A stretch of DNA of 63,897 nt, filler included, from Rhizaria sp. SCN 62-66 (lineage: Eukaryota): the NCBI GenBank assembly GCA_001724265.1. It is 3 parts of 3 records of this genome, joined end to end, with 100 filler letters (N's around TTAATTAATTAA, not from the genome) between each part and the next. Parts side by side here need not be neighbours in the genome. Positions count along the whole stretch, not along the records: positions 23,042 to 45,912 come from MEDY01000434.1; 2 more parts are not named here. One strand, 5' to 3'. Below, in pieces: positions 11,335-60,866 of this stretch (position 1 is its first letter; the number at the start of each line of letters is the position of its first letter). The translations under genes were made by a program, and so were the position numbers. The notes beneath the pieces are model-generated. The model made no database searches and had not been told where the DNA came from. It saw only the letters and a program-made list of their open reading frames with translations.

Positions 11335-13581
11335 TTAAGTAAGACGGCACTCCTCGGAAACCTCGCCGGACCAGTCGCCGGCCAGGTGCACCGGCTCGTG
11401 CTCGGTGACGTTCTCGAGCGTCTGCGGGATGACGCGGCGCTGCAGCATGCGCACGATGAGCGTCAGCTCGCGCAGCTCGTCGCGCAGCCCATTGATGTAG
11501 TTGGTCAACGCGCGGAACTGCGTCTTGACGCCCTGCCAGTTGACGCTGTTGAGGCGGTTCTGCACAGAGCCGCCCACGCGGACCGCGCCGTTCGCCGCGG
11601 CGGCGCCGGAGGCGGCCGCGCCGGGCACGCCGCCCGGGCCACCGGAGGGAACGACGGCGCCCGCTGCGTTAACGGTGCCGTTGCCGGTCTTGTCCGCGCT
11701 AGCGCCCGCGGCGGAGCCGTAGAGCGCGAAGTCCTCGGCGCCGCCGATGTCCTTGCGCTCCATGGCGGCCTTGAGCATCGTGTGGAGCGACATGAACTCG
11801 TCGAACACGATGGTGAGGTCGCCGTCGACATCGACCTTCTGCATCAGCACCTTGAACTCGACGGGCGACAGCTTAATGCCTTCGTCGTTAAGGAAGCGGT
11901 GCATCTGGTCGTACGTGAGCCGGCCGTCGCGGTCCGCGTCAAGGTCCTCGAAGTGACCGCGCATGAACTCGACGTCACGCGCTGCTTCATCAGCGTAGTC
12001 GATCTCGTGCTGGCGGATCAGGATGCGCGCGCGCGTGCTGAAGTCGATCGGGAAAGACTTGCAAAGCAGGAGGAATTCGTCCTTGTCGACGACACCGTTG
12101 CCGTTGAGGTCGAGCTTGCGCATGATCTTGAGGATCTGCGCATCCGTCTGAGGCATGCCCATAAGCTCGAACGCGCGCTTGACTTCATCGAACTCGAGCT
12201 GCTTGTTGTCGTCGGCGTCGACGATGTCGAACACAGCCTCCAGCTCGTCGTTGGACAGCTCGCGCCGCGCGCCGCCCGCGGCGCCGCCGGAGAGGAGGCG
12301 GATGCGGAGCTCCTCGGCCTTGCGGTCGTTGAGCTCGGGGTCGTTGACGATCTCGTCCTCGATAGGCGGCACGTCGCACACGAGCTCGTCGGCCGCGATC
12401 TGAAGCGCGAGCCGCTCGCGGTCGTGGCGCGACAGCAGCGTGCCCTTGATGTTCTGAGACAGCTTCTCGTACTTGTCCTGCACCTGCTCGAAGTCGACCT
12501 CCTTCTCGTACTTGACGAGGCGATAGAAGCGGCTGCGCGGGACGACATAGAGCATCAGCAGATCGATGACTAGGATCGAGAGCAGGATGAGCGCGACAAC
12601 GGACGCGACGTGCACAAAGAGCAGCGGGAACTCGAAGCGGCCGATAGTGCCGACCTGGACGAAGGTAACGCGGATGGCGTTGCGCTCCTGCACGGTGCGC
12701 GTGAGGTCCGAGAGCTTGCGCGGCAGCACCTCGGAGGCCACAAAGCCCTCGCGCGGAATGCGGTACGGCAGGTACTCGTACGTGGGCGCGGCTTGGAGGT
12801 TGGCGACATTGCTGTACTTGATGAAGACGACGAGTGCGATGCCGTCGCCGCGGATCGACACATCGGACGATGTCGAGCACAGATTGCTGTCACAGCGCAC
12901 GTCGATCGAAGTCATCCCGGCCGCCGTGAGAAGCAGCCGCAGGGACACGGCGTCGGCGATGCCCGTGGCGGGGAACTCCTGCAGCACAGCGCCGGCGGCG
13001 TTGCGAAGCGAGCCCACGCCCGAGGTCGAGCGGATCGTGTACTTGCCCTCGTCGCCCGTGCTGTAGTAGATGCGCGAGCCCTGTGCGTAGTGCACGAGCT
13101 CGACCTCGAAGTCCTCCACGCCCGCAACGTATTGGTACGGCGTGAGCCCGCCGGCGTTCACCTCCCAGGGCGTCGTGCACACTTTATCGGTACAGTCCGC
13201 GCTGAGCGTCTCGTCGGCGGAGCGGAAGCGCGTGGTAGCGAAGATGTTGTTGTCGCCAACTGAGTTGAGGCTGGCGTCGAGCGCGTCCATGTGCGCGCAG
13301 TCGAGAGGGAAGGTGAGGGTGGGCAGCGACGACTGCTCGCAGTAGGTCAGCGCGTCGAAGTCGATGTCCAGCGCGGGCGGGCGGACGAGTTTGGAGAAGA
13401 CGGCGCCCGTGGGGACATCCTCGCGCATGTAGTATTTGCCGTCGATGATGACGGCGTAGACGAGGTACACGATGATGGGGCACACGAAGAGCAGCCGCAG
13501 AAAACCGAGGAGCTTGTCGCGGATGATCACCGTCTTCGGCGTCGAGTACGACAGCACGTCGCGGACGGAACAACAGCTCAT
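11335..13581 (-). CDS. P2X-family cation channel (non-metazoan type) with four C-terminal EF-hands, 748 aa
   Basis: N-terminal YSTPK (YxTxK) motif followed by TM1, then a Cys-containing ectodomain. RNAIRVTFVQVGTIGRFEF leads into TM2, followed by FYRLVKYE (YxxxK). EF loops: DADDNKQLEFDE, DLNGNGVVDKDE, DADRDGRLTYDQ, DVDGDLTIVFDE. Ends in TAA. Confidence 0.9.
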   Translation of the reverse strand: MSCCSVRDVLSYSTPKTVIIRDKLLGFLRLLFVCPIIVYLVYAVIIDGKYYMREDVPTGAVFSKLVRPPALDIDFDALTYCEQSSLPTLTFPLDCAHMDALDASLNSVGDNNIFATTRFRSADETLSADCTDKVCTTPWEVNAGGLTPYQYVAGVEDFEVELVHYAQGSRIYYSTGDEGKYTIRSTSGVGSLRNAAGAVLQEFPATGIADAVSLRLLLTAAGMTSIDVRCDSNLCSTSSDVSIRGDGIALVVFIKYSNVANLQAAPTYEYLPYRIPREGFVASEVLPRKLSDLTRTVQERNAIRVTFVQVGTIGRFEFPLLFVHVASVVALILLSILVIDLLMLYVVPRSRFYRLVKYEKEVDFEQVQDKYEKLSQNIKGTLLSRHDRERLALQIAADELVCDVPPIEDEIVNDPELNDRKAEELRIRLLSGGAAGGARRELSNDELEAVFDIVDADDNKQLEFDEVKRAFELMGMPQTDAQILKIMRKLDLNGNGVVDKDEFLLLCKSFPIDFSTRARILIRQHEIDYADEAARDVEFMRGHFEDLDADRDGRLTYDQMHRFLNDEGIKLSPVEFKVLMQKVDVDGDLTIVFDEFMSLHTMLKAAMERKDIGGAEDFALYGSAAGASADKTGNGTVNAAGAVVPSGGPGGVPGAAASGAAAANGAVRVGGSVQNRLNSVNWQGVKTQFRALTNYINGLRDELRELTLIVRMLQRRVIPQTLENVTEHEPVHLAGDWSGEVSEECRLT

Positions 13582-15497
13582 GGTGACGGTACGTTACTGT
13601 GTGACTGCAAGAACTGTGTGTGTAGCTGCGGAGAGCGTGTCGTGTTGCGCGTTATTCAAGTGGCGATGCTTTCTTGTCTGTCAGCTTGTGAAAAAACTAG
13701 ATAGATCACAGAAAGACGGAGAAAGTGGGTTGCGAAGAGTCAAGTTGAGCTAGGTAAGAAACAAGTGCTAGTGCGACCAGACTGAGCCTTGTTGTTGTGT
13801 TGAACTAAAGAGAGAGCGGGCGCAAAGGATGCGATGGCGACTGCTGCTGCGAGCGCTTGCTGCTGCCGGTAGAGCGTCCGTGCTTCGACTCAGACTCTAC
13901 ACGAAGGGCGTAGGTAAAAGTCAGAAGAACGGGGAGAGCGCGCGTGGTGCTGCTTGTCTCTGCTGTGAGGTGGAGCTGCTACGGGAAGCGAGCAGGGGCA
14001 CACAGCAAGAGCAACGCACGGGCGAAAAGGGGATACGAACCCACGCACGCGGCCGGAGTTTGCGCGCGAACGAAAGGGGCTGTGGGGATAGGACCAAGAC
14101 CAAGTGCGACGTGGCACAGGTGTCTGAACTGATGGGGAGGTTTTGGTGGAAAAGATAAAGATGGGGAAGCAGGAGGCGTTGTTAAGGGAAGGGGAGCGTT
14201 TGCAGAGCAGTGCACTGAGGTCAGAAACCACCGCACTGGAGGGCGGGGATCGTAACTGAAGCCAAACAACAAAATACCTAAGCGAAAAACAATTCGAAAC
14301 GCAGATAAATTTAAATATTTTGCGCAACAACGGTTCTCCTGGCTCACAACCGAGGGGGAAACACGAGCCGTCAACCCCCTTTCCTGTCGGTCGCAAATTA
14401 AGCCGCGCTTCGACCGGCCGAGTTCAGTCCACCGGCAAGGCTCGCGCGACCGCCATTCTCTCCAAAAGGGTGTAGGGCTGTTGAACGTCGTCAGATGCGT
14501 GTAGGATTTTGATGTGTGATATGAGGGTACCCATTACATTTGATTTCTAAAATTCATATGTAATGGATTTTGTTTCGTATGTCTAATCTCTTGTGGCGTA
14601 ATCGTTGCTTTGATTCGAGTGAAGTGCCTCGTTCGTCATGATGTTTCTGCGCGCTATCTTCGCAATACTTGCTGGGTTTTTGTATAAGAGTTGAGTATAT
14701 TACGCGATGTCACGGACTATATTGCATGTTTTAGCGCGATTTGATCTGACGTTTGTCTATGATGTGGTATCCGCTATACTGTCTCAGTTTTGAGGTGCAT
14801 TTAAGATCATTGAAAGCGAAAGTCCTAACTTTGATAACGCACTTAAATGACCTAACTAACAAATCACGTTAGATTATGTTTGTTAAGACTCTTTGACCTG
14901 CATTATATCATGGTTTTGTCGAAGTGTCTCTTGATCATATCGTGACTCACGGCTATTGATGGACACGCACTAACCTTCGTCAGCTGTCGCCAGAAGATAT
15001 GCACACTTCGCGACATTTCTAAGGTTTGTCCTTCTTCTATAGCATGAGCTGTTGTACTTAGTGCAGTAGATGACTTGTTTGCGCTCTTTTACATTGTTTT
15101 CATTCTATTGTATATCATTTAATGATGCAATGAGAAGTCCTCCTCTGAGCTTCCACCACCTTGATCATGCTTTAACAATCTGTTCATTGGGTATCTCACA
15201 TGTGCGCAGTTGTTCCGCATATTTCAGCTTCTTCGATCTCCTATGCAAGTTATCATATTGACTAAAATACTGATCTTCCAAACACTGTCCACCCTTGAAT
15301 ATTAGTTTCCAAGGCTCAATCGATGTTTGCCGCGCGCGAGCTTAAATCATAATAATAAGCATCAACAAAGACGAATCCACGATATGTTATATAAAATCTA
15401 CTATTATTTCACCCACCCAAGTTTCAAATAAAATAACGCAGATATAGCGACTCATATCCTTCGCTTAGTGAACAGGACCACATGCACTTGTTCCGGT

Positions 15498-22941: not shown

Positions 22942-23041
22942 NNNNNNNNNNNNNNNNNNNNNNNNNNNNNNNNNNNNNNNNNNNNTTAATTAATTAANNN
23001 NNNNNNNNNNNNNNNNNNNNNNNNNNNNNNNNNNNNNNNNN
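22942..23041. other. Artificial contig spacer (44 N + TTAATTAATTAA + 44 N)
   Basis: Six-frame stop linker flanked by N runs; identical to the spacer at 45913-46012. Confidence 0.97.
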
Positions 23042-38174: not shown

Positions 38175-39878
38175 ATGGAGGCTGCCGTCCGCGTCTCCGC
38201 TCTTCCTGACGAGGAGCGCTTTGTTGCTTTTAGCGCGCTTGCCGAGCAGTTCATCCTGGCCTCTGACGCGGCGTCGCTGCGCGCCCTCGCTACCCACTTG
38301 CTGACGGTGGAGATCAACAACTCCTTCTCGCGTAACTGCATCCTCAACGAGCTCATCGTCGACATCTGCAGCAAGGTCAAGGACTCGGACGAGAAACTCG
38401 ACGCAAACCTTGACCTGGAAGACGCCGTCGACTTTGCCCGCGCCGTCGCCGCCGCGCTGCACCCCTTAAACGCAGAGTTCCCCGAAGCTTTCTTCGCGGC
38501 GGCCGACTTGCTCTCGGCCGCGCTCCAGGGGCTCGAGCGCTGGCGCGACGCCGCTGACGCTAAGGCCGACTACGCCTTCCCCGTGGACACCTCTGTGCCG
38601 CCCATCGAGCGGCTGGAGTGGGCCCTGGACGCTGCTGGCTTCTACCTCAAGAGCGCCCCCGAGCCCACACTCCCTGCAACTGCAAACGCCAACTCGACCA
38701 CAAACTCATCTCAAGCGAGCTCTGTTTCGCCGGCCGCGCGCTCCGCGTCCACCCGCGCGGCATCCTCCGCGTTCTCGATTCTGGCCCAGCGCGCGACGCC
38801 GCTGCTGAGGACGGTCCACGCCGCGTCCGCTGCCGCCGCCGCCGCCGCCGCCAAAGCGCCAGTCAACACGCCCGCACACATCAAGGCCTCGGCCGCGGCG
38901 GCCGCACTCTCTGCTAAGTCCGTCGCCGCATAGCATCGGCTTGATCTCTACTTTGCGCAGGCTGCCGAGCGGCTGGAGCGCCCCGCCGACGCCGCAGACC
39001 GGTACTTGTCCGTGTTCTCGCGGCTCCAGGGTCCTCAGTCCGCGGCCGTGGGGCTCGGCGCTGCGACTGCCGCGGGCGCGCGCGCCGCGCTGGCTGCGGC
39101 CGCGGTCAACGCGCTCGCCACGCCCGTGGGGCCCCGGCGCGCGCGCGTGCTGGAGGCCGTTGTGCGCGCGCAGGGCTGGGAGAGTTTGCCAGCGTCTACC
39201 TTGCTCCTCCGCACCACCAATACCAGCGCTAGTACCGTCGCAAGCTCTAGCGCCAGCGCGGGCTTTGCGGGTGGGTTCATCACTGAGCGTGAGCTCACCG
39301 TGCTCGAGTTGACCCCCGGGCTGCCGCTGGGGCTCTGCTTCGCGTCTGCTAACAATAACAGCAGCAGCAGCAGCAGCAGTAACAGCAGTAGTTCTAGCGT
39401 CACCAGCGGCGACGACACCGCCGGTCTGCTGCGGCGCGCCTCTCGCGAACACAACGTGTGCGTCGCGGCGCAGCTGTTTACCACCGCGTCGCTCGCGCGC
39501 CTCGCCACCCACCTGCTCGGCCTCGGCGCGAGTGCGGTGAACGCGGGCAGCGGCGCTGCGAACAACGGCGGCGGAGCTAGCAGTGCTGCCGCGACCGCGA
39601 CGGCCGCGTTGATCGCGGACCTGGTCTCCCGCGGCGCCGTCTCCGCGCGCCTGGACGAGGCCGCTGGCTTCGTCCGTTTTCCCGTGCTGCCCCCCGCGGC
39701 CGCGGCGCCCGTCGCCGGCGCAGAAGGGCTCGAGAAGGGTTCTTCCTCCAGCGGCGCTGAGCAAAGCACCGCCATGCATGCTGAGAGGGTCAATGTCGTG
39801 CAGAAGTGGCGCGAGGGGCTCGGCGCGCTGTGCGAAGAGGTTGATGAGGTTCTGGCGCTTGCGCTTACCGCTGTGTGA
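38175..39878 (+). CDS. Divergent PCI-domain protein resembling COP9 signalosome subunit 4; one 567-codon frame with an internal TAG at 38931-38933
   Basis: The track ORFs 38175-38933 and 39006-39878 are in the same frame, separated only by one TAG. CSN4-like motifs: AADRYL, ATPVGPRRARVL, LRRASREHNVCVAAQLF, ALIADLVSRGAVSARLDEAAGFVRF, KWREGLGALCEEVDEV. TGA stop. Confidence 0.75.
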
Positions 39879-40206: not shown

Positions 40207-41342
40207 TCACACTGTCACGGGCTGGTCGAACCCCTCATCATCATACGAATGATGCTGCTGCTGCTGACCGTTGCCATTGTGCTGCTGCTGTAGTTGCTGC
40301 CGACTGCGACTGAGGCTTTGGTTGTTGTTGTGGTCGTCAACAAAGCCTTCGTTGTCGTAGCCATCGTTGTCATACGCAACAGCACCGTGGCCGTGATCGT
40401 TCTCATAGCCGTCATCGTCGTAGTTGTCATAACTGCTGTGCTGCTGCTGTTGCTGTTGCTGCTGCGGCTGCTGCTGACTCTGATGTTGCTGCGGCTGCTG
40501 TGTCACCCGCTTCTGAGGCGTCTGCTGCGGAGTGCGCCGCTGCTGCGGCGGCGCCTGCGACTATGGACGGCGCGCACTATCACTCTCACCGTGACTATTG
40601 CTGCCTCCGGCGCTAGCGTTGTTGCCGTTCTCCTGGTCCTGGAGCGCGGCCTGGAGAAACTGGATCTTTTTCTCCAGCGCAGCCTCCCTGTCGCGCAGCA
40701 GCGCCTCCTCCGCCTTGGCCTGCGCCGTCTTGACCGCGACCGCCTTCCGCTCGCGCTCCTTCTGTCGCATCACGCGCAACAGCTCCTGCTCGCGGCGCAT
40801 GACGTCGCCCAGCCCCGCGCCGACCAGCGCGCGGCCCGCGCGGCGCGTCTCGGCCCGCTCCACGCGCGCGCGCTCGTTCTCCTCGGCCGCCACCAGCGCC
40901 TCACGCGCGCGCCGCTGGCTCGCCTCGGTCTGCTCGCGCACGCGCCGCTGCGTCTCGGCTAACGCCTCCGCGCGCGCGCGCTCCGCCTCGGCCGTGCGCG
41001 CCGCCGTCACGTCCGCGCGCCGCTGCGCCACCTCCAGGTCGTGGGCCTCCTTGCGGCGGCGCGTCTCCTCACCGCGGCGCTCGGCGTCGTCGGCCTGGCG
41101 CCGCGCCGTGTCCGCGCGCTGCAACTCGCGCTCGGCGATGCGCTGGCTCGCGAGGTCGTCTTTGGCACGCACCTGCGTGTGCTTGAACAGGGCCAGCTTG
41201 GCCTCGAGCAGCAGGCGTCGCTGCAGGTGCTTCGGCCGGCCCTGAACGGTGTCGCGGCGCAGCCAGACCGAGTTCGGCTCGGGGGGCTGAACCTGGCTCA
41301 GCCGCTGGCTCTGGCTCAGCTGCTGCTGTGACTGAATGTTGT

Positions 41343-41375
<33 letters not shown>

Positions 41376-42542
41376 CCCCGTCAGCGCTGGCGTGGCTGCC
41401 GTCAGTGAACGCGTCGTCGTTGTAGTCACCGTTGTCCGCAGCCTCAGCGCTGTGAGGCTGCGACTGTTGTTGAGACTGATGCTGCGCGGGCTGGCGGCCA
41501 CTGCTGCCGCCGGTGTTGACCGTTGCAGCACGACTGCCACCGCGGCTGCTGCTGCTACCGCTGCCGTGGTTACCCGCCTTGTCGCTGCCGTTGCCGCTGC
41601 CGCTCGAGTCAGCGCCAGCAGTGATCGAAGCAGCCTTATCAAGCGGCGCGCGGTACAAGCGCTCCCAGGGGCCCTGGACCTGCCCTTGATGATTCTGACT
41701 CTGACTCTGGTTCTTGTTGCTAGTGTGTCGGGCGCTCTCACTGCCGTTGCGTCCAGAGCTGTAGCTGCGGCTGTAGCTGTAGCCGTACGCGCTGCTCGTC
41801 ACAGGTGCAGTGCGGCCGCCGCCGGACATCAGCTGCTGTTGTTGCTGCTGCAAGCTCCCCTGCTGCTGCGCCGCCGAGAGTGACTGCGCATGTTGTTGCT
41901 GCGGTTGCTGCGAATGCGGCGCGGGCTGCTGCGGCGGCATGGCGGCGAGCCCCCAGGCCTTGGTCGACGCGTACGGCGACTTGTACCCGGGCTGGTCGGG
42001 GCGCGTTGCGCGATACGGCGCCACGCACGCTGCCGCGGACGTGAAGGCCTTGGAGGCGTCGGAGCGCGGGGGCGCCTCGTGCTGTCTACGCTCTCGCTCG
42101 TGGTAGGCTGCGTACTCGTCATGGTGCAGCTGGCGGCGCGCGCGCACTTCCTCGTCCTCGCTGTCCTCGCCGTCGCCGTAGTAATCGCCGCGGTAGCAGT
42201 CAGCTTCACCGTTCTCGTGCTCGTGCTCGCCGTGGCCGTTGTTGCCGTGCGCGGCGCCAGCGGAAGCAGCGCCAGCAGCAGCGTCAGCATTGGTATTCTC
42301 AACATGCTGGGCCGTGGGCGAGCCCACCGCAGCCACCGAGTGATCCGCCGAGTGTTCGGGGGCCACGGCGGCGACCGACGCGCTCTTGTGCAGTTGCGCA
42401 CGGCTCTGACGCTGGCTCTGCGGCTGGCTGTAGGGCTCGTTAAGGTTGTGCAGTCGCGCCTGGCTCTGGTACTGGCTCGGTGACCGATCCGGATCGTCCC
42501 CGTACATGCTTTCGTTGTAGCTGTCGTCGCGGCTGTCGTAGC

Positions 42543-42583
<41 letters not shown>

Positions 42584-43606
42584 AGATGCTGCTTGTTGTT
42601 ACTGTTGCGGTCGACAGGACGGTCGTCGACGTCGCCGTGCAGGTTGGCGCAGGGGTCGTGGGGCTTTTGACCGCCGGTGTTCCGCCGCTGTTGCTGCTGC
42701 TGCGGGTCGCGGTCTCGGTCGCCGTTGCGGGACTTGGAAGAAGGTAAGCCGCCGGGGGCCGTGCTCGCGAACTGCTGCTCACGCTGCTGTTGTTGCTGTT
42801 GCTGTTGCTGACGAGACTTAAGCTTTTGACCACGCTGCTGTTGCTGCTGTTGTTGCTGCTGGGACTGGCGGTGTGCGGGCGGCAGCGACGACGGCACAGA
42901 GCCGTCGCCCTCATGCCCCTGCCCCTGCTCCTGTCCCTGTGGCTGACCCTGACCGTGCTCCTGACTGTGGCCCTGTTCGTGCTCGTGCTCGTCGCTGTGC
43001 CGCGACGAATGCGACTGCTGCTGAGACTGCGCCTGTGCCTTGTTCCCGCTGGACGACGCCGTGGCATTGCGCAGCACGCGCGCGTACACCTTGTTCACCG
43101 CGGGCAAGTCCTGCCGGAGCCCCTCAGCCTCCTCGAGCTCGCTCTTGTGGATCTCTGCCAGCGCCTGCGACCGCGCCAGCAGCAGCTGTCCCTTGCGCTC
43201 GCCCGCGTCGCGCCGGAGCGCCTCCCTGCGCAAGAACTCATCCTCGCGCGCGCGCCGCTGATCCTCCTCCTGCTCCTCGCGGGCCCGCCGCGCCGCAGCC
43301 TGGCGTCGCTCGCGCTCGCGCCGCTCCTGCTGGCTGCGCTCGGCTGTGAGCGCGCGCGCCTCGGCCACACTCGCGTCCCCGGCGCGCGCGCGGGCCTCGA
43401 CCTCGGCGCGGCGCGCCTCGCGGTCCTCGCTGTGCGCCTGCAGGTTCGCCGCGACGCGCTGCAGCAGCCGCTCGCGCGCGGGCGAGCCGGGGCGCGCGGG
43501 CGAGCAGTGCCCGTCGCCGTAGTGGCCGTCGTCGTCGTAGTCAGAGTACTCGTTGTTGCTGTGGTGGCTGCCGCCGGTGCTGTTAAACGACCGCTGCTGC
43601 TGCTGC

Positions 43607-43643
<37 letters not shown>

Positions 43644-45291
43644 GAGAGTGCCCTCCGTTATGGTAGCCGGTGCTGCGGGCGGAGAGAGCGCCGGAGCGCG
43701 CACGCGACTGCGGGGCACTGCTGAACCCACTCTGAGTCTGAGCCTGACTGTGCCCCTGCCCCTGCTGCCCCTGTTGCGGCTGCTGTTGCTGGTGGTTTTG
43801 CTGCACTTTGCGCATGCGCGCGCGCTCCTTGTCGACCTCTGCCCAGCGGCGGCGCACGAGCAACTCGCGGTCGTCGGCCAGCCGCGCCATGAGCGCGTCG
43901 ACCGTAGCCAGCGCTTCGGCGTGCGAACGCTGCCGCTGTCGGAGCGCCTCCGCGGCCGCGGCGTACTCGTCCTCCTCCTTGGCGAGCTGCTCGCTGTACA
44001 TCGACGCAACGGCCGCAGACTGCGCGGACAGGTCGTCACTGCGGGCCGCCACGGCGGCGTTGTGCGCCGCGATGGCGTCCTTCTCCTCCGCCAGCTTGGC
44101 CAGCTCGGCCGCGGCGACGGGGTGGGTGCTGTCGCCGCCGCAGCCGTTGCCGCTGCCGCCGGAGGGGCGGGACGCGGGGCGCCCGCGCGCGCTGGGTTTA
44201 TCTTTATCGCGACTGGGTTCTGGGTTGTTGCCGTTGGGCTTATTGCTGGTGTCGTCTTCGTAGTGTTCGTTAGCGTATTCGTCGTCGCCGTCAGCGGCGG
44301 CGTCGCCGCGACTGCCGTTGCTGGCCTCTGCGTTGATGCTCGACTGCGTGGCGCCCGCGTCCGCGCTGTTGTGCGCGCGAGTGCCGTTGTTGTTATCGTT
44401 AACAGCAGGCGAAGGGTGAGTGCGCGCCAACTGGGCTTGAACTTGCGACTGAGACTGAGAGCGTTGCTGTTGCCTCGCAGGTTGTTGCTGCTGTTGCTGC
44501 TGTTGCTGCTGCTGTTGCTGCTGTTGGGGTCGGGGCTGTTGTGGCGGCCGCGGCTTCTGCTGTTGCTGCTGCTGCTGCGGCTCTGACTGTTGTTGCTGGT
44601 TGCTGCCAGTCACAGACCGCTGCGCATGTCTCGGAGTCTGTTTGGGCGTCTGCGACGGAGACGCGTGCGGCGGCGGCGACTGAGCCCGCGACTGTGCCTG
44701 CAACCGCGCCTGCAACTGCGAGCCCTGCGGCGGGGGCGACGGGGACCGAGTGCGCGTGCTGCCAGCGGCGGTGGCGGCGGCGACGCGCGACGGCGACGGC
44801 GACCGCTGTTGCTTGTTAGAGCTCCGCGAGGGGGACACGGAGCGGTGGCCAACCTTGGGCGACGGAGACGGAGACCGGGAGCGCGACTGCGGCTCGGGGG
44901 ATCTCGACCCGCGCGCGGGCGCCGCTGGCGCAGCAGCAGCGTTGGACGCTGTAGCAGTGCGCGTGTTACCGGGCGTTCTCGTCGCGGACGCTGCTGCTGC
45001 CTCGCGCTCGCGCAGCAACATCTCGGGGCTCGACGCGCGCGTGGCGTGGCCGCTGGCGCTGTAGTCCATGTCTTCCGCACCGCCAGACTCGACCACGGTC
45101 TCCAGCACGGCGCGGCGCGGGTCGTGCCAGGCCTCGCGGTCGTCGCCCGCGGACGGCGCTCCCTCGGGGCTGCCGCTCTGGCCGGCGCGGTCGTCGGGGG
45201 AGCCGGCGTGGGCCTGGGACGGCGCGGAGGCGTCGGGACCGGCGTCGGGGGACGCGGGGTTACCCGCTGGAACGGAGGCAGAGCCACCCAT
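40207..45291 (-). CDS. About 1694-aa Gln-rich coiled-coil protein with a possible N-myristoylation motif; internal TAG at 40563-40561
   Basis: Starts MGGSAS (MGxxxS) and has three E/R/A-rich helical blocks. The frame continues 117 codons past the TAG with the same Q/H/D/Y composition (SQAPPQQRR...YDDDGYEND) to TGA at 40209-40207. Confidence 0.8.
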
Positions 45292-45912: not shown

Positions 45913-46012
45913 NNNNNNNNNNNNNNNNNNNNNNNNNNNNNNNNNNNNNNNNNNNNTTAATTAATTAANNNNNNNNNNNNNNNNNNNNNNNNNNNNNNNN
46001 NNNNNNNNNNNN
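45913..46012. other. Artificial contig spacer (44 N + TTAATTAATTAA + 44 N)
   Basis: Same structure as 22942-23041. Confidence 0.97.
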
Positions 46013-46971: not shown

Positions 46972-47295
46972 TGTGGGACGGGACAGCAAAGGCGCGATGC
47001 AAGTGGCTGGGACAAGGGACAATGCGGTGGCTGAGACGTTGGTGCGGCTGCTGTAGCGATGGGACGGGCAGTGACGAAGGCGGAGACGAGGAGCGAATAT
47101 CTGGTGAGCGATGACGACGATGTGGTGGGGTTCAAGAAAGATGATATAAGACGTGCATTTGTCCGTCAGCGCAAGAACCATTTCCGTTAAATACTGTAAT
47201 TACTATTTTGTGTATCATATTAAAATATTTCAAGCTTAAAACCTCTCCTCAACTCTTGTTGGCTGAATTCCTTTACCGCACCACAGAGTCTCTCG

Positions 47296-49068
47296 ATGAG
47301 CGACCCCAAGGACGACCTGCCGCCGCCGCTGGAGGACCTGTCTTCCGTGATCGCGCAGCGCAAACAAGCGCGCGCCGAGGCAGAAACGGTGCCGGTGTTG
47401 CCGCGCGTGCTCGACGCCGACGAGGACACGTTGCACGCCGCGCGCGTCGCCGCCATCCAGGCCGCGATTCAAAAGCCTGCAGCCGTTACGGCCCCTGCCG
47501 CGGCCGCCAAGCCCCCGGCGAATGCGAGTGCGGCTGCGGCGCAGACCCCCGCGGCGACCAGTGCGGCCAAGCCGAAGCCCGCAGCCCCCGCGGCGGCCAC
47601 GGCGGCTGCGGCTGCGGCGCAGGACGACGACGACATGTTTCCTGGTCTGCGCGCCGCCTTCCTTCGGCGGCAACAGGCGCAGAAGAAAGCGAAGGCCGCC
47701 GCCGCCGCCGCTGGCTCTGGGACTGGGACTGCGACGACTACGAGTGCGACAAGCAAGAGTGTTCCTAAGCCTGCTGCCGCCGCTACAAACGCCACCAAAC
47801 CGACGTCTGCGTCTGCCTCTGCCTCTGCAGCGGACGCGGACATCCCCTTCATCCGCGGCGACCCGAAGGCGGCCGCGACAGCCGCGGCGGCGGGCATGCA
47901 GCCGGCGCTGGCGGCGGCCGTGGGCGCCTCGGCGCGCGACGGGTGGCTCACGGGCGGGCTGCTGGGGGCGGTCCGCGGCAGCGAGGCACTCATGCGCGGA
48001 CTCGCCGACCCGCGGCTTGCGGCCGCGGTCGCCGAGATCCAGCGCGACCCCGCGCGCGCGATGGCCAAGTACAAGGACGACAAGGAGGTTACAGACTTCT
48101 TCCAGAGCTGGGTCCAGTTCATGGCTCAGCAGGCCGGCGCGCCAATGACGCCGCAGTCGACGGAGAGTGCCAGTGTCAGTGCTAGTAAGGGCAAGAGCAC
48201 TGGCGCTGCGGCGACTTCAAGCACGAATTCAAGTGCGAGTACCGGCGCGGGTACCGACAGTTCAAGCACGAGTACTACCAAGAGTGCCAGTGTGAAGTTG
48301 GACGTGCTTTCAGCGCGCGCCGAGGCCGCCGCGGTCGACGACGCTGCGGGCTTTACCATCCGCCCCCGCACAGTCACCAAGACTGGCGCCGCGGCCGCGG
48401 CGGCGACGACGACAGGGACTAGCAGCCGCCACGCGAGTGGGAATGGGAAGAGTTCGATCAGCATCGTCGAAGTCGACGACGACGAAGCTGGTCTCGACTC
48501 CATGGGCACGGACAAGAGCAAGGGCCAGGGCCAAGGCAAGGACGCGGAGGGCAGCGGCTCTAGCTCCAAGATCCAGCTGCTTGACGACGACGACGCCGCT
48601 GCCGCTGCCGCCGCAGCCAAGAAGCAACAGCAGCAGAAGCAGCAACAGAAGTCAGTCAAAGGCAGCGCCAGCGCCAGCGCCGACAGCGGCCAAGACGACG
48701 GCGGCCTGTCTGTGGTGCGGACGCGGGCGCGGACGGCGACGCCCGCGGCCGCCGCCGCCGCCGCCGCCGCGGGCGCCGCGGCCGAGGCCGACAGTCTGGA
48801 CTTCAACGGTCGGCGCGTGCCGCGCGCGCAGCTGGCGGCGTGGCTTTCGCATCCGCCGCTGCGCGCCGCGCTGTCGGACCCCGCGACGGGGCGGCTGCTC
48901 GACGCCATCAGGCAGGACGAGACCCGCTTCCCGCTCGCGCTCAAGGACCCGCGCGGGCTGTTGCTCGTGCGCGCGGGCATTCTCGCAGTGCCGGAGCGCT
49001 TCGCGGCCCTCGCCCAGCAAGCCCTTGCCCAGCAGCAGCAGCAGCAGCAGGGCGGTGCCGGTAAGTGA
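47296..49068 (+). CDS. STI1/HOP-DP repeat-containing protein, 590 aa
   Basis: LMRGLADPRLAAAVAEIQRDPARAMAKYKDDKEV and LRAALSDPATGRLLDAIRQD...LKDPR resemble STI1 DP motifs. TGA stop. Confidence 0.7.
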   Translation: MSDPKDDLPPPLEDLSSVIAQRKQARAEAETVPVLPRVLDADEDTLHAARVAAIQAAIQKPAAVTAPAAAAKPPANASAAAAQTPAATSAAKPKPAAPAAATAAAAAAQDDDDMFPGLRAAFLRRQQAQKKAKAAAAAAGSGTGTATTTSATSKSVPKPAAAATNATKPTSASASASAADADIPFIRGDPKAAATAAAAGMQPALAAAVGASARDGWLTGGLLGAVRGSEALMRGLADPRLAAAVAEIQRDPARAMAKYKDDKEVTDFFQSWVQFMAQQAGAPMTPQSTESASVSASKGKSTGAAATSSTNSSASTGAGTDSSSTSTTKSASVKLDVLSARAEAAAVDDAAGFTIRPRTVTKTGAAAAAATTTGTSSRHASGNGKSSISIVEVDDDEAGLDSMGTDKSKGQGQGKDAEGSGSSSKIQLLDDDDAAAAAAAAKKQQQQKQQQKSVKGSASASADSGQDDGGLSVVRTRARTATPAAAAAAAAAGAAAEADSLDFNGRRVPRAQLAAWLSHPPLRAALSDPATGRLLDAIRQDETRFPLALKDPRGLLLVRAGILAVPERFAALAQQALAQQQQQQQGGAGK

Positions 49069-55600: not shown

Positions 55601-57601
55601 GGTGGAAACGGCGTTGGCAGCGGGAGCTTAGGCGCGTTTTCTTTCTTCGCGCCGAGCCCGAGCCCGGCGAGCGCTACTGGAAACGCGAGCGCGGCTGCGA
55701 GCTCGGCTGCGAGCGCGAGCGGTGCCGCGACGCCGCTGCCCCTCGGCGCGGGCTCCAGCCGGCGCACGAGCCACGCGGCCGACGCGGCCGACGCGCTGCT
55801 GCGCGCGCTGGCGCTGCGCAAGGGGCTCGCGGGCCTGGCGGCCCTCGCGCACACCGCCGCGGACGGCGGCGCAGACGGCGGTGCAGACAGGGACGGGGAC
55901 ATGGACAGGGACAGTCAGAGCGCGAGTGTGAGTGCGAGCGTGCGCGAGGCGGCGCGCGCGGCGGCGCGGGCGGGGTTCCTGTACGTCGTCTCGGTGGTGC
56001 CCGGCTCGGCGGCTGCGCTGGGCGCAGCCAACAACGGGACCGTGGCCGGCCACGGCTACGACAGCGACGACTGTTACGAGGACGACGAGGACGACGGCGA
56101 CGACTACTACGCCGACAGCGACGGCGACGCGCTTGACTATGACGATGATGAGGAGCACAACTACGACATTGATCATGACGGCTTTGGCTACAATGATGAC
56201 GCCAACGACAACGATTACGACGGCGCAAGCTTCGGCGACATCGACACCGGTCCGCAAAGTCAAGGTGGCAGCTACAGCAAGAGCACTAGAGCCGGCGACT
56301 TCGACGGCGACGCCGACAACGCCAACTCGAACATCTCGAACATCTACAACGCTAACTCGCTCTCGCACAATGCGGGAGCAAGTGCGAGCACCAGTGCGAG
56401 CGACGCGGCGACCGTGGCGGAGCTACTGCGGGCCGTTGCGGCCGCGGAGACGACGGTAGCCGCCGCGCCCAGCGCCGCCGCCGCGGCCGCCGCGAGCGCG
56501 GCCGTTGCGGCGGCGTCGGCCGCGCTGGCGGCGCTGCCGCTCTCGCGCCAGGGGCTGCGGCCCGGAGACGTGGTGCTCAAGTTCGGCCGCCTGCGCGCGG
56601 GCGCGGGCCCCGGCGCGTGCGCGCACGGCGGCGACGGCGGCGACTTGTGCGGCTGCGTGCTGCGCTACGGCGGCGACTGGCGCGCTGTCGCAGGCTACGT
56701 CCGCGACCGGCCCGGCGTCGCCTTCGACATCGTGGTACGCGACGACAGCGAGCTGTGCGCAATATATCTTGTATATTGCCTTCGTTGACTTCACATATGT
56801 GAGTATATTTCAATCTTTTTCTTTATTTCGGTGTTGTTGATCCCCAATATGATCTGCTCATATCTTCGTCTCACTCGTCGCACTCGCTTACAACACTGTC
56901 TTGTCCCCACCCCTGTATTGCGCACGTAGCTGCTCCGCTATGCGCGGCCGCCGCCCTCGCTGGCTCAGCTGCTGTCGCAACCGTTAGAGCCGCAGACAGC
57001 CTCGGCCTCGCGCCGCTCGAGCCGTAGTCACGGCCAGCAGCAGCCGCAGCAGCAGCAGCAGTCTCGACAGTCTCGCGGCAGCGGCAGCGGCAGCGGCAGC
57101 GGCAGCGGCGGCGGCAGTGGCAGCGGCGGCGTTGACGCTGCGGCCGCCGGAGCGCGCCCCTTCTCCCGCTCGCGCTCGCGCTCAGGCTCGCGCTCAGGCT
57201 CAGGCTTAGGCTCAGGCTCCGGCGCGCGCGCGCAGCACGAGAGCAGTCACGCACGCAGCAATCATGCTCGCAGCGGCCACGCTCGCAGCGGCGGGGGCGG
57301 CGGCGGAGGCGGCGCGGCGTGGGCGCGGGCGGTGCGCGTGCGCGTGACGCCGCTGCGGTCCGCGTCGACGAGCTACGCGACAGCCGCGGCGGCGCGCGCG
57401 GGCGAGCCCTGCGACCCGAGTCCCGCGGCCGCGGCGCCGGGCGCGAGGCACGCGGGCGCGGCGGGCGCGCTGGGCTGCGTGCTCGCGGACTGGCCGCCCG
57501 CGCGCAAGACCGTCGACCTCATCGTGCAGTCCGTGCCAACCGCCGGGAGCGCGGCGGGCACGACCACCTCCATTTCTCAGCAATAGACGCCCCGGTTCTG
57601 A
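52625..57601 (+). CDS. Large low-complexity protein ending in a fragmented PSMD9/Nas2-type PDZ domain; exons 52625-56734, 56930-57601; internal TAG at 57584-57586
   Basis: PDZ pieces in the expected order: FLYVVSVVPGSAA, GLRPGDVVLKFG, AFDIV|LLR, VRVRVTP, GALGCVL. Phase-0 GTACGC...TAG intron. Ends SQQ(TAG)TPRF then TGA; under the standard code it would end at 57586. Confidence 0.7.
54375..54441 (+). repeat. 18-bp tandem repeat (CTGCTCACGGTCATCACC) x3.7 encoding AHGHHP units
   Basis: Three perfect copies plus a partial copy, read directly. Confidence 0.9.
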
Positions 57602-58159: not shown

Positions 58160-60866
58160 ATGTCTAAGGCCAAGGTCCGTGATTTGTTCGACACCCTGTC
58201 GTACGGTCCCTGCCCCGAGTCGGATGCCGCGGTTAAGGCGTGGATTGCTGCTGCTCCTTCGCCTCGTGGCGTTTTCATCGACAACCAGTGGAAGGCTGTT
58301 GAGTCCCGCAAGGTCACCGACTCCATCTCCCCCGCCGACAAGAAGGTTCTGGGCCCTGTTCTCGAGGGTACTGACGCTGACATTGCTGAGGCCGTCGAGT
58401 CCGCCAAGAAAGCTCAGGTTGCCTGGGCTGCTCTCTCGCCCCACGAGCGCGCCAAGCACCTCTACTCCGTTGCTCGTCACTGCCAGAAGCACGCGCGTCT
58501 CCTTGCCGTTGTTGAGGCGCTCGACAACGGCAAGCCGTTCCGCGAGACCAAGAGCTCCGACGTGCCCCTGCTCATCCGCCACTTCTACTACATGGCTGGC
58601 TGGGCCCAGGTCGCCGAGGAGGAGTTCCCCGACTACAAGCCCGTTGGTGTCGTCGGTGCTATCGTTCCTTGGTACGTTCATTGCTCTCTCTCTTGTTTTT
58701 TCTCTTCTCCTTACAACCTCGCTCGCGTAAAGATGATATCCACTCAAAATAACTTAGGAAGTGCCGTATGAGAATATGTGATTTTATTCTAGTGCCGGAA
58801 CTGAACGCAATCAACCTTATGATATATCTCAAAACTCCCACAAATGCAAAGCAGAAACACGATGTCTCACTATCAACTTTCTTCATCTCTTGTGTTAACA
58901 ACAAAACAGGAACTTCCCCCTGATGCTTCTGTCGTGGAAGGTTGCCCCCGCGCTCGCGATGGGCAACACCGTGGTGCTGAAGCCCGCCTCGTACACCCGT
59001 CTCTCTGCGCTGCTGTTCGCCGAGATCTGCGCCGAAGCCGGCCTGCCCGCGGGCGTGTTCAACGTCGTGTGCGGCTCCGGTCGCATCGGCTCCACGCTGG
59101 CGGACCACCCCGACGTCGGCAAGATCGCTTTCACGGGCTCGACCCCCATCGGCCAGTTGCTGCGCCGCCGCACCGCCGGCTCGGGCAAGAAGATCTCGCT
59201 GGAGCTGGGCGGCAAGTCGCCCGTTATCATCTTCGACACTGCGGACCTGGACTCGGCCGTCGAGGGTGTCGTCGACGCCATCTGGTTCAACCAGGGCCAG
59301 GTCTGCTGCGGCGGCTCCCGCGCCCTCGTCCACGAGTCGGTCCACGACCTCTTCCTCGCACGCCTCAAGCGCCGCCTCAACTCGTGGCGCATCGGCCACT
59401 CGCTGGAGAAGGACATCGACATGGGCGCCGTCGTCGACGAGTCGCAGTACAAGACCATCAAGGGCTTCTGTGACGAAGCCGTCCGCGAGGGCTGCGACGT
59501 CTACTTCCCCCCCGTGCCCGTCCCCAAGGAGGGCTTCTTCTGGCCCCCCACGATCATCTCCAACGTCCAGCAGACTTCGATCTGCGTCCAGGAGGAGATC
59601 TTCGGCCCCGTCGTCACGGTTCAGTCCTTCCGCAACATGGAGGAGGCCATCGCGCTCGCCAACAACTCCAAGTTCGGCCTCGGCGGCTCCGTGTGGACCG
59701 AGAACGTCTCTCTCGCGCTTGAGGTTGCCATCAACATCAAGTCCGGCGCTGTGTGGGTCAATTCGCACAACATCTTCGACTCGGCCGCCGGCTTCGGTGG
59801 CTACAAGGAGTCCGGCTTCGGCCGCGACGGTGGCCGCGAGGGTCTCTACGAGTACATCAAGCCCAAGTGGCAGCAGCCCGTCAAGACGGCGCTGACCTTC
59901 CCCACCGAGGCCGCCAAGTTCCCCTCGGCCCCCGTCGCGCTCGTGGCTCCCCCCACCGCGGTCGCCGCCACCGGTGCCGAGCTCACGAAGGGCCCCCTGG
60001 GCTCGCTTGTCATTGATCGCACGGCCAAGATGTACATCGGCGGCAAGCAGAAGCGCCCCGACGGCGAGTACTCGTTCAACGTCATCAACCCCGCCGGTCA
60101 GATCGTCGGCCAGGCGCCCGACGGCAGCCGCAAGGACCTTCGTGACGCCGTCGAGGCTGCTCACGCCGCCGCGCCCGGCTGGGGCAAGCGCGCCGCGCAC
60201 AACCGCGCGCAGATCTGCTATTACCTCGCCGAGAACCTCATGGCCCGTGCGGAGGAGTTCGCCAAGCGCATCGAGCAGCAGACCGGCCGCGCCGCGGCCG
60301 ACTGCGAGCGCGAGGTGGAGCTGTCGATCCAGCGCCTTTTCTACTACGCCGCTTTCGCCGACAAGTATGGCGGCGAGGTCAAGGAGACGACGCTCTACGG
60401 CGTCACCGTCTCCACCAACGAGCCCGTCGGTGTGATCGGCATCGTGTGCCCCAACGAGTACCCCCTGCTCGGCTTCGTGTCGCTTATCGCGCCCGCGTTG
60501 ATCCGCGGCAACGCCGTCGTCGTCGTTCCCTCGCAGACTGCTCCCTTCTCGGCCACGGATCTCTACCAGGTCTTCGACACCTCCGACCTGCCAGGCGGCG
60601 TTGTCAACATCGTCACCGGTGACCACGACTCGCTCACCAAGACCCTCGCCGAGCACTACGACGTCCAGGCGCTGTGGTACCATGGCAACGAGAAAACTTG
60701 CGCGGCCGTCGAGTATGCCGCCTCGGACAACATGAAGCGCACCTGGGTCAACTACGGCGTCGCCTGGGAGTGGGAGAATAACAAGGTCGGCCAGGGCCGC
60801 GAGTTCCTCCGTCACGCTTGCGAGGTCAAGAACATCTGGATCCCCATCGGTGACGGCCAGGCGTAA
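58160..60866 (+). CDS. Aldehyde dehydrogenase family 16-like (full ALDH plus a second Rossmann-like half); exons 58160-58671, 58910-60866; 822 aa
   Basis: IVPW|NFPL spans a GTACGT...CAG intron. Other motifs: FTGST, LELGGK, FNQGQVCCGGSR, EEIFGP, GGYKESGFGRDGG. Then RTAKMYIGGKQKRPDG and a second ALDH-like domain ending VKNIWIPIG. TAA stop. Confidence 0.93.

What the first reader, a model, noticed from the sequence alone, without database searches (positions are those of the whole stretch)
40207..40563. 117 coding-like codons continue after the apparent TAG stop of the Gln-rich protein
The minus strand reads ARRP-TAG-SQAPPQQRRTPQQTPQK...QQQQHSSYDNYDDDGYENDHG...DQPVTV-TGA. Codon style and motifs match the upstream protein (compare YSDYDDDGHY). 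GC content drops only after the TGA, as at other gene ends. No GT(A/T)CG donor is nearby.
Basis: seen in the sequence. Interest (0 to 1): 0.8.

Follow-up and report, generated by a model that had tools for sequence, protein, structure and literature searches.

The report
Protist reads TAG stop as glutamate
The apparent stop codon is not a stop: this wastewater flagellate seems to use a previously unlisted genetic code in which TAG is read as glutamate while TAA and TGA still end proteins, so standard annotation cuts some of its proteins short.

Summary
In detail: a 1,576-codon frame, TAG (40561-40563, minus strand), 117 more codons, then TGA. It is not gene-specific readthrough. The window comes from a 35-Mb eukaryotic assembly, probably a rhizarian (cercozoan) flagellate, in which TAG behaves as a rare sense codon. 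In 833 kb, coding-like sequence continued past 19 of 27 TAGs but only 2 of 63 TAAs and 1 of 46 TGAs. The only eRF1 gene found has an in-frame TAG where 109 of 120 homologues have Glu and none Gln. A kinase hinge TAG sits where 129 of 131 homologues have Glu. The genome holds a tRNA gene with anticodon CUA whose body is Glu-type (47/73 identical to tRNA-Glu(CUC), 31/73 to tRNA-Gln(CUG)). eRF1 carries T32S and G57S, absent from 120 homologues. Against Glu: TAG neighbourhoods in low-complexity proteins often look Gln-rich. Best reading: a nuclear code with UAG=Glu and UAA/UGA=stop, making this protein 1,694 aa. In the papers I could read, UAG-only reassignments give Leu, Gln or Ser, and UAG=Glu always comes with a reassigned UAA. 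Decoding itself (proteomics) is untested, and leftover termination at UAG is not excluded.

The parts
40564..45291 (-). Main body of a single-frame gene, 1,576 codons from the first in-frame ATG (start assumed). Low-complexity Gln/Ser/Asn/His-rich protein with charged, coiled-coil-like blocks; no Pfam family.
40561..40563 (-). In-frame TAG, read as a sense codon (most likely Glu)
   Evidence: amino acid
40210..40560 (-). 117-codon C-terminal tail (Gln-rich and Asp/Tyr/Asn-rich blocks). Strain variation seen here keeps the frame: one synonymous SNP (40219) and one 3-nt repeat insertion (behind 40252).
40207..40209 (-). TGA, the proposed true stop (total 1,694 aa)
38175..39878 (+). Neighbouring convergent gene, 567 codons, with a second in-frame TAG at 38931-38933 followed by 314 coding codons and TGA. 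Resemblance to a CSN4/PCI subunit is recalled only; no Pfam or PDB hit.
   Evidence: TAG unchanged in an X2 contig spanning 38142-39345
57584..57601 (+). TAG followed 4 codons later by TGA at a gene end; ambiguous (sense codon near the end, or a true TAG stop with a back-up)

Best explanation
The organism uses a variant nuclear genetic code: UAG is decoded as glutamate, UAA and UGA terminate. SHOWN in sequence: TAG sits inside coding regions and almost never at gene ends; a tRNA gene with anticodon CUA and a tRNA-Glu-like body exists (G000:C84, L102); eRF1 has T32S in the GTS motif and G57S next to TASNIKS; conserved TAG columns are Glu. INFERRED: the tRNA arose from a duplicated tRNA-Glu(CUC) by one anticodon change and is charged by glutamyl-tRNA synthetase; a CUA anticodon pairs with UAG but not UAA, so UAA stays a stop; the altered eRF1 reads UAG poorly. 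The gene in the finding therefore makes one 1,694-aa protein ending at TGA 40207, with Glu at codon 1,577. UAG is rare (about 0.2 per 1,000 codons, about 0.5% of the GAG count), so the change may be young or costly to decode.
For: Symmetric test over 833 kb: coding continues after 19 of 27 TAG, 2 of 63 TAA, 1 of 46 TGA (some TAG rows are wrong-frame ORFs). In 664 kb the first stop-like codon after a coding run was TAA 48, TGA 47, TAG 3. Of 142 kinase-domain matches, 11 contain TAG; on reading, 5 are in coding sequence (4 in the domain core) and 6 are intron acceptors or intronic, while all TAA/TGA inside matches lie in intron-like text. eRF1 (one gene found; the other family hit looks like pelota) has TAG at human E107: E 109, D 10, V 1, Q 0 of 120 proteins; E in 77 of 79 loci, the other two being this same TAG sequence and a gap. 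Kinase hinge TAG (L263): E in 129 of 131 aligned homologues, Q in none. Pfam bit sums over 8 sites (added by hand): E 876.6, Q 872.5, K 871.2, D 870.3, S 867.0, Y 860.2, L 858.1, W 856.9. tRNA(CUA): ARAGORN and Rfam 58 bits, poly-T terminator, host-style flanking genes; 47/73 identical to Glu(CUC), 38 to Glu(UUC), 31 to Gln(CUG), 25 to Gln(UUG). eRF1 T32 and G57 are invariant in 120 of 120 homologues, including the nearest relative.
Against: A neighbourhood classifier on 23 TAG sites (mostly low-complexity) ranks Gln first (16.5; Glu -1.0), and the E-minus-Q score of -17.5 falls in the range of true Gln samples. Per site it is split 12 E-like to 11 Q-like, best mixture 55% E. A ubiquitin-like domain has TAG where paralogues have Gln (CAG). 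The nearest eRF1 relative has Val at the TAG column, so that site is relaxed in this lineage. The five closest PDB kinases to L263 show S,S,S,S,Q; SNF2 hits show E,V,V,A,V, and Pfam prefers W/D/S there; CaMK hits show Y or K. Only two sites are strongly conserved. T32 also differs in standard-code Trichomonas, Entamoeba and Trypanosoma (PMC5304391 Fig. S2). No proteomics, ribosome profiling or tRNA charging data.
Confidence: 0.85

Rival explanations
1. UAG is still mainly a stop; a weak natural suppressor tRNA-Glu(CUA) competes with eRF1, so the short 1,576-aa form dominates and the tail is a minor extension (ambiguous intermediate leaning to stop).
For: One CUA tRNA gene against 8 Glu(CUC) matches. 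TAG very rare; none in true coding sequence of about 47,000-49,000 dynein codons. Two TAGs lie 3-4 codons before a TGA at gene ends (window 57584; L097).
Against: TAG interrupts the N domain of the only eRF1 gene found and the cores of kinases. TAG is nearly absent from gene ends. Other rare codons are also 2-6 fold depleted in dyneins. One gene carries 9 TAGs (L064).
Confidence: 0.07
2. UAG is read as glutamine (as in Iotanema), or as both Gln and Glu.
For: Context classifier favours Gln; TAG inside poly-Gln runs (L043, L078, L088); ubiquitin-like paralogue column is Gln; Pfam margin of E over Q is only 4.1 bits.
Against: Q in 0 of 120 and 0 of 131 homologues at the two conserved sites; the tRNA body and acceptor stem are Glu-type; acidic contexts such as EDDDYS-TAG-DDEDED. 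CAG to TAG is a transition, so tolerated Gln-to-Glu changes in disordered runs would give the Gln-like contexts (inference).
Confidence: 0.04
3. Programmed, gene-specific readthrough of this TAG under the standard code.
For: A local hairpin can be drawn 3' of the TAG.
Against: That fold is no more stable than shuffles (z 0.05). In-frame TAG occurs in many unrelated genes with varied +4 bases, and a cognate tRNA exists.
Confidence: 0.02
4. Assembly error, recent nonsense mutation, or an intron that removes the TAG.
For: Many TAGs in this genome are intron acceptors (L134, L135, L141, L142, L180, L264, L265).
Against: No donor or AT-rich intron upstream of this TAG. The TAG is kept in another strain's contig and the neighbour's TAG in another study. 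Errors or nonsense mutations would also make TAA and TGA.
Confidence: 0.02

Closest known systems
Rhizarian exLh (Sainouroidea), UAG=Leu (PMC5304391)
   Same: Rhizarian nuclear genome; only UAG reassigned; UAA and UGA end genes.
   Different: Amino acid is Glu, not Leu (Leu trails by 18.5 bits). UAG is far rarer here (384 in 71 genes there). The tRNA gene is in hand here. eRF1 has T32S/G57S and keeps L69 (exLh has L69A). Kinship to exLh was not established.
Iotanema spirale, UAG=Gln (PMC5304391, PMC9161772)
   Same: UAG-only reassignment with a change at eRF1 T32 of the GTS motif, the residue said to contact the G of UAG; standard-code relatives keep GTS, as the nearest relative does here.
   Different: Fornicate; Gln; T32G rather than T32S; UAG is about 8% of Gln codons there against about 0.5% of Glu codons here.
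Oligohymenophorea sp. PL0344, UAA=Lys, UAG=Glu (PMC10553269)
   Same: UAG=Glu through tRNA(CUA) genes most like tRNA-Glu.
   Different: Ciliate; UAA is also a sense codon and only UGA stops; ten CUA tRNA genes against one found here.
Blastocrithidia and peritrich ciliates, UAR=Glu (PMC12153298, PMC11687900)
   Same: tRNA-Glu(CUA) derived from tRNA-Glu; reassigned codons avoided in some gene classes.
   Different: Both UAA and UAG are Glu. The Blastocrithidia change is tied to falling GC, whereas coding GC3 here is about 0.8.
Phyllopharyngean ciliates (UAG=Leu or Gln), Protocruzia tuzeti (Gln), Scotinosphaera (Ser), as listed in PMC11687900
   Same: UAG sense, UAA stop.
   Different: None gives Glu. 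TAA and TGA are used about equally here, whereas UAA ends 87-98% of genes in those ciliates.

Membership tests
Nuclear UAG-only stop-to-sense reassignment | In-frame UAG inside conserved coding regions of unrelated genes | tested here: met
   eRF1, five kinases, SNF2 helicase, ubiquitin-like domain
Nuclear UAG-only stop-to-sense reassignment | UAA and UGA keep ending genes and do not occur in frame | tested here: met
   48 TAA and 47 TGA ends; 3 of 109 continue as coding-like, none shown to be a true gene; TAA/TGA in kinase matches are intronic
Nuclear UAG-only stop-to-sense reassignment | UAG not used as a terminator | tested here: inconclusive
   At most 3 of 98 ends; two cases have TGA 3-4 codons later; about 2.4% of the genome sampled
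Nuclear UAG-only stop-to-sense reassignment | Cognate tRNA with CUA anticodon, none with UUA | tested here: met
   One CUA gene. No UUA-anticodon tRNA among 26 pattern matches; exact patterns can miss divergent or intron-bearing genes.
Nuclear UAG-only stop-to-sense reassignment | Altered eRF1 stop-recognition motifs | tested here: met
   T32S and G57S unique among 120 homologues; NIKS, E55, S70, YxCxxxF kept. Functional effect untested.
UAG=Glu code | Conserved columns at UAG are Glu | tested here: met
   109 of 120 and 129 of 131 at two conserved sites; six variable sites add little
UAG=Glu code | Glu inserted at UAG in the protein; tRNA charged with Glu | not testable with these tools
   Needs proteomics or aminoacylation assays
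Peritrich/Blastocrithidia-type UAR=Glu code | UAA also read as Glu | tested here: not met
   TAA ends genes and is not in frame
exLh-type UAG=Leu code | Conserved columns are Leu; tRNA-Leu body | tested here: not met
   Leu 858.1 against Glu 876.6 bits; short-arm Glu-type tRNA, 32/73 to Leu(CAG)
Programmed stop-codon readthrough | Confined to particular genes with a local signal; codon otherwise a normal stop | tested here: not met
Pyrrolysine decoding | tRNA-Pyl and pyl enzymes | tested here: inconclusive
   ARAGORN's 'Pyl' label only follows the anticodon; the body is Glu-like; pyl genes were not searched
Rhizaria (Cercozoa) | Groups with rhizarians in protein trees | tested here: met
   One dynein tree (941 columns, 52 rows, FastTree): clade with Bigelowiella 0.968, sister to stramenopiles; single gene, one named rhizarian
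Rhizaria (Cercozoa) | One- or two-residue insertion at polyubiquitin junctions | tested here: inconclusive
   Ubiquitins begin with an extra Met-Ser, but no head-to-tail junction was seen
Sainouroidea/Helkesida | 18S rRNA groups with sainouroids | not testable with these tools
   A divergent 18S is present, but no eukaryotic rRNA reference could be searched, and the exLh 18S in the supplement was cut after about 400 letters

The most novel reading that the evidence does not exclude
A code change caught in progress in a GC-rich rhizarian: UAG is decoded by a single young tRNA-Glu(CUA) that still competes with a half-blinded eRF1, and the UAG inside the eRF1 gene itself acts as a feedback switch (more eRF1 truncates its own synthesis), so UAG-bearing genes such as this one give both short and extended proteins.
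Probability: 0.2. Interest if true: 0.92.

Novelty: new variant of a known kind. Interest (0 to 1): 0.8.

Why it matters
Nuclear codes that split UAA from UAG are rare. In the papers read, UAG-only changes give Leu, Gln or Ser, and UAG=Glu always comes with a reassigned UAA. This would be a further code variant and a second, apparently separate change in Rhizaria, with the tRNA gene, the eRF1 changes and a near relative with canonical eRF1 motifs all in view. It arises in GC-rich coding sequence, unlike the AT-pressure route proposed for Blastocrithidia, and at very low UAG use, so it offers a test of codon-capture against ambiguous-intermediate models. In practice, standard gene calling truncates these proteins: database protein P0382 ends exactly at a kinase-hinge TAG.

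Tried and rejected
Dynein paralogue alignment: uninformative; the TAG rows were wrong frames or intron acceptors, and ten dynein genes hold no true in-frame TAG, which fits general rare-codon depletion. TAG rows dropped as acceptors, intronic or 5' UTR: L134, L135, L136, L137, L141, L142, L153, L180, L061, L164, L264, L265, window 31726, and the antisense row L089:5360 (the last two were left out of the 23-site classifier). DEAD family: 1 of 43 matches had a TAG, an acceptor. HSP90 and eRF1 searches gave no named close relative. No close relative's DNA came from the metagenome scan: 1 of 80 loci was an identical copy, the rest at most 71% identical, so the code of relatives is untested. The Gln-rich protein and its neighbour have no Pfam or PDB family. 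RNA runs X5 and X7 are contigs with thin cover and show neither splicing nor expression at the TAG. The kinase homologue set was not matched to L132, L133, L139 and L140, so those columns are scattered. No RNA structure signal after the TAG. The 18S could not be placed; it may belong to a co-binned organism. Earlier scan findings were not available. The ESM Atlas was not consulted, so remote look-alikes of the protein remain open.

Full report
OBSERVATION. On the minus strand an open frame runs from 45351 to ARRP, then TAG (40561-40563), 117 codons and TGA (40207-40209). From the first in-frame ATG (45291, assumed start) this is 1,576 + 1 + 117 = 1,694 codons. A codon model trained on this genome scores the tail +7.1 in frame, -16.2 and -98.8 in the other frames. 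The tail's GC3 is lower than the body's (0.71 against 0.83), and GC declines gradually, with the sharp drop 130-190 nt past the TGA. No GT(A/T)CG donor lies between 41788 and 40231. The locus is single-copy in G000 apart from repeat matches. Of 4 runs laid, a contig of X4 spans the TAG with 2 differences elsewhere (26 letters on the short side); variation in the tail is one synonymous SNP and one 3-nt repeat insertion. The protein has no Pfam family.

THE PATTERN IS GENOME-WIDE. The neighbouring gene has an in-frame TAG at 38931 followed by 314 coding codons, unchanged in an X2 contig. In 664 kb (60 ten-kb loci from six contigs plus the window), 275 coding segments held 138,171 codons with 40 TAG (some are acceptors or edges), and the first stop-like codon after a coding run was TAA 48, TGA 47, TAG 3. 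That model let TAG be read through, so I repeated the test symmetrically on 833 kb with all three treated as stops: coding-like sequence continued after 19 of 27 TAG, 2 of 63 TAA and 1 of 46 TGA (several TAG rows are wrong-frame ORFs, one is intronic). Among 142 kinase-domain matches 11 held a TAG. I read all 11 plus the 3 with only TAA/TGA: 5 TAGs are in coding sequence, 6 are acceptors or intronic, and every TAA/TGA lies in intron-like text. The only eRF1 gene found (G000:C63; the other family hit reads like pelota) has a TAG in its N domain and ends in TAA.

WHICH AMINO ACID. The eRF1 TAG aligns with human E107: of 120 homologues 109 have E, 10 D, 1 V, none Q; of 79 aligned metagenome loci 77 have E, one is this same sequence and one a gap. 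The Val is in the nearest relative (P0127, 84%), so the site is relaxed in this lineage. A second search (PF07714, 152 matches) gave a kinase with TAG at the hinge position (L263). Homologues found with the upstream part alone have E in 129 of 131 aligned (149 given), none Q, and the two closest read LVTELC. The five closest PDB chains show S,S,S,S,Q. Pfam bits summed by hand over 8 sites: E 876.6, Q 872.5, K 871.2, D 870.3, S 867.0, Y 860.2, L 858.1, W 856.9; only eight residues were tried. Against Glu: a neighbourhood classifier on 23 sites ranks Gln first (16.5 against -1.0), within the range of true Gln samples. Per site the split is 12 to 11; TAG has both many acidic neighbours (1.65; GAG 1.88, CAG 0.92) and many Gln neighbours (1.48; CAG 2.08, GAG 0.46). 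A ubiquitin-like domain has TAG where paralogues have CAG. My inference is that TAG arises both from GAG (silent) and from CAG (a transition, tolerated in disordered runs), so context shows mutational origin while conserved columns show decoding.

MACHINERY. A pattern scan found a tRNA gene with anticodon CUA on G000:C84: a full cloverleaf, Rfam 58 bits like its ordinary neighbours, a poly-T terminator and host-style flanking genes. It is 47/73 identical to tRNA-Glu(CUC), 38 to Glu(UUC), 31 to Gln(CUG), 25 to Gln(UUG), and shares the Glu acceptor-stem start and end. A second scan (26 matches) showed 1 CUA, 8 Glu(CUC), 1 Glu(UUC) and no UUA-anticodon tRNA; exact patterns can miss genes. eRF1 has T32S and G57S, where 120 of 120 homologues have T and G; NIKS, E55, L69, S70 and YxCxxxF are kept. 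PMC5304391 (section 9) states that T32 hydrogen-bonds the G of UAG and that Iotanema has T32G; PMC9161772 (passages) reports that its standard-code relatives keep GTS. T32 also varies in some standard-code taxa, and Tetrahymena has S there (supplement Fig. S2); T32A is lethal in yeast (PMC4381064, passages). The effect of T32S is therefore inferred, not shown.

HOW COMPLETE. TAG is rare: 28 in 133,771 interior codons against 5,073 GAG. Ten dynein genes hold none in true coding sequence, but other rare codons are also 2-6 fold depleted there. One gene holds nine (L064). Two TAGs lie 3-4 codons before a TGA at gene ends. Leftover termination at UAG cannot be excluded.

ORGANISM. G000 is 34.9 Mb in 714 contigs; matching runs are bioreactor, wastewater and sludge metagenomes. 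It has axonemal dyneins and GT-AG introns with GTACG donors. In a dynein tree (52 rows chosen from 120 hits, 941 columns) it groups with unnamed sequences and Bigelowiella (0.968), sister to stramenopiles: probably Cercozoa, on one gene. Ubiquitins start Met-Ser-Met, which recalls the rhizarian one-residue insertion (PMC6133090, section 22 and passages), but no tandem junction was seen. A sainouroid identity is a guess.

COMPARISON AND NOVELTY. It works like other stop-to-sense changes through a CUA tRNA. PMC11687900 (first part and passages) lists UAG-only cases as Leu (exLh, three TARA ciliates), Gln (Iotanema, Hartmannula, Trochilia, Protocruzia tuzeti) and Ser (Scotinosphaera); UAG=Glu appears only with UAA reassigned (peritrichs; PL0344, PMC10553269 passages; Blastocrithidia, PMC12153298 passages). 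Five searches listed no UAG=Glu code with UAA and UGA as stops. The library lacks most subscription journals and bioRxiv supplements were closed, so a prior report cannot be ruled out. Of PMC5304391's seven supplements I saw numbers 6 and 7 (exLh 18S cut). The CSN4 resemblance and the S74-like label below are recalled, not from a call.

VERDICT. Observation confirmed; the cause is a genome-wide code change, not special readthrough. UAG as a sense codon about 0.95; the full reading UAG=Glu with UAA/UGA stops 0.85. New variant of a known kind; interest 0.8.

Noticed in passing
L039:1594-1596 (-), G000:C63: The eRF1 gene itself carries the in-frame TAG; if UAG still terminates at times this would be a negative feedback loop.
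   Followed up: partly
L131:1501-5945 (+), G000:C706: Highly divergent, AT-rich 18S rRNA with four Rfam group I intron matches and a reading frame inside the first insertion (possible homing endonuclease, untested); may be co-binned from another protist.
   Followed up: partly
window 11338-13593 (-): P2X-receptor-like domain fused to EF hands in one 752-codon frame.
   Followed up: no
window 58899-60866 (+): Aldehyde dehydrogenase with two Aldedh stretches in one frame.
   Followed up: no
L064:2451-7073 (+), G000:C44: One gene with nine in-frame TAGs, far above the genome rate; no Pfam hit in the part scanned.
   Followed up: partly
L146-L151, L176-L179: Unusually divergent ubiquitins with an extra Met-Ser start, mostly monomeric or fused to a ribosomal-protein-like tail; no head-to-tail polyubiquitin seen.
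   Followed up: partly
L148:1501-2000 (+), G000:C681: Ubiquitin-like domain (with a TAG) fused to a region that recalls a phage tail-fibre chaperone (S74-like; recalled, not tested).
   Followed up: no
833 kb sample: The base after true stops is mostly G (46 of 63 TAA, 24 of 46 TGA); after TAG there is no such bias.
   Followed up: no
P0127, P0244, P0001: A close relative (84-88% protein identity) exists in public metagenomes; its eRF1 keeps GTS and G57, so it may use the standard code.
   Followed up: partly
window 22942-23041 and 45913-46012: N-padded spacers: the window joins separate contigs; the gene studied lies on G000:C434.
   Followed up: yes
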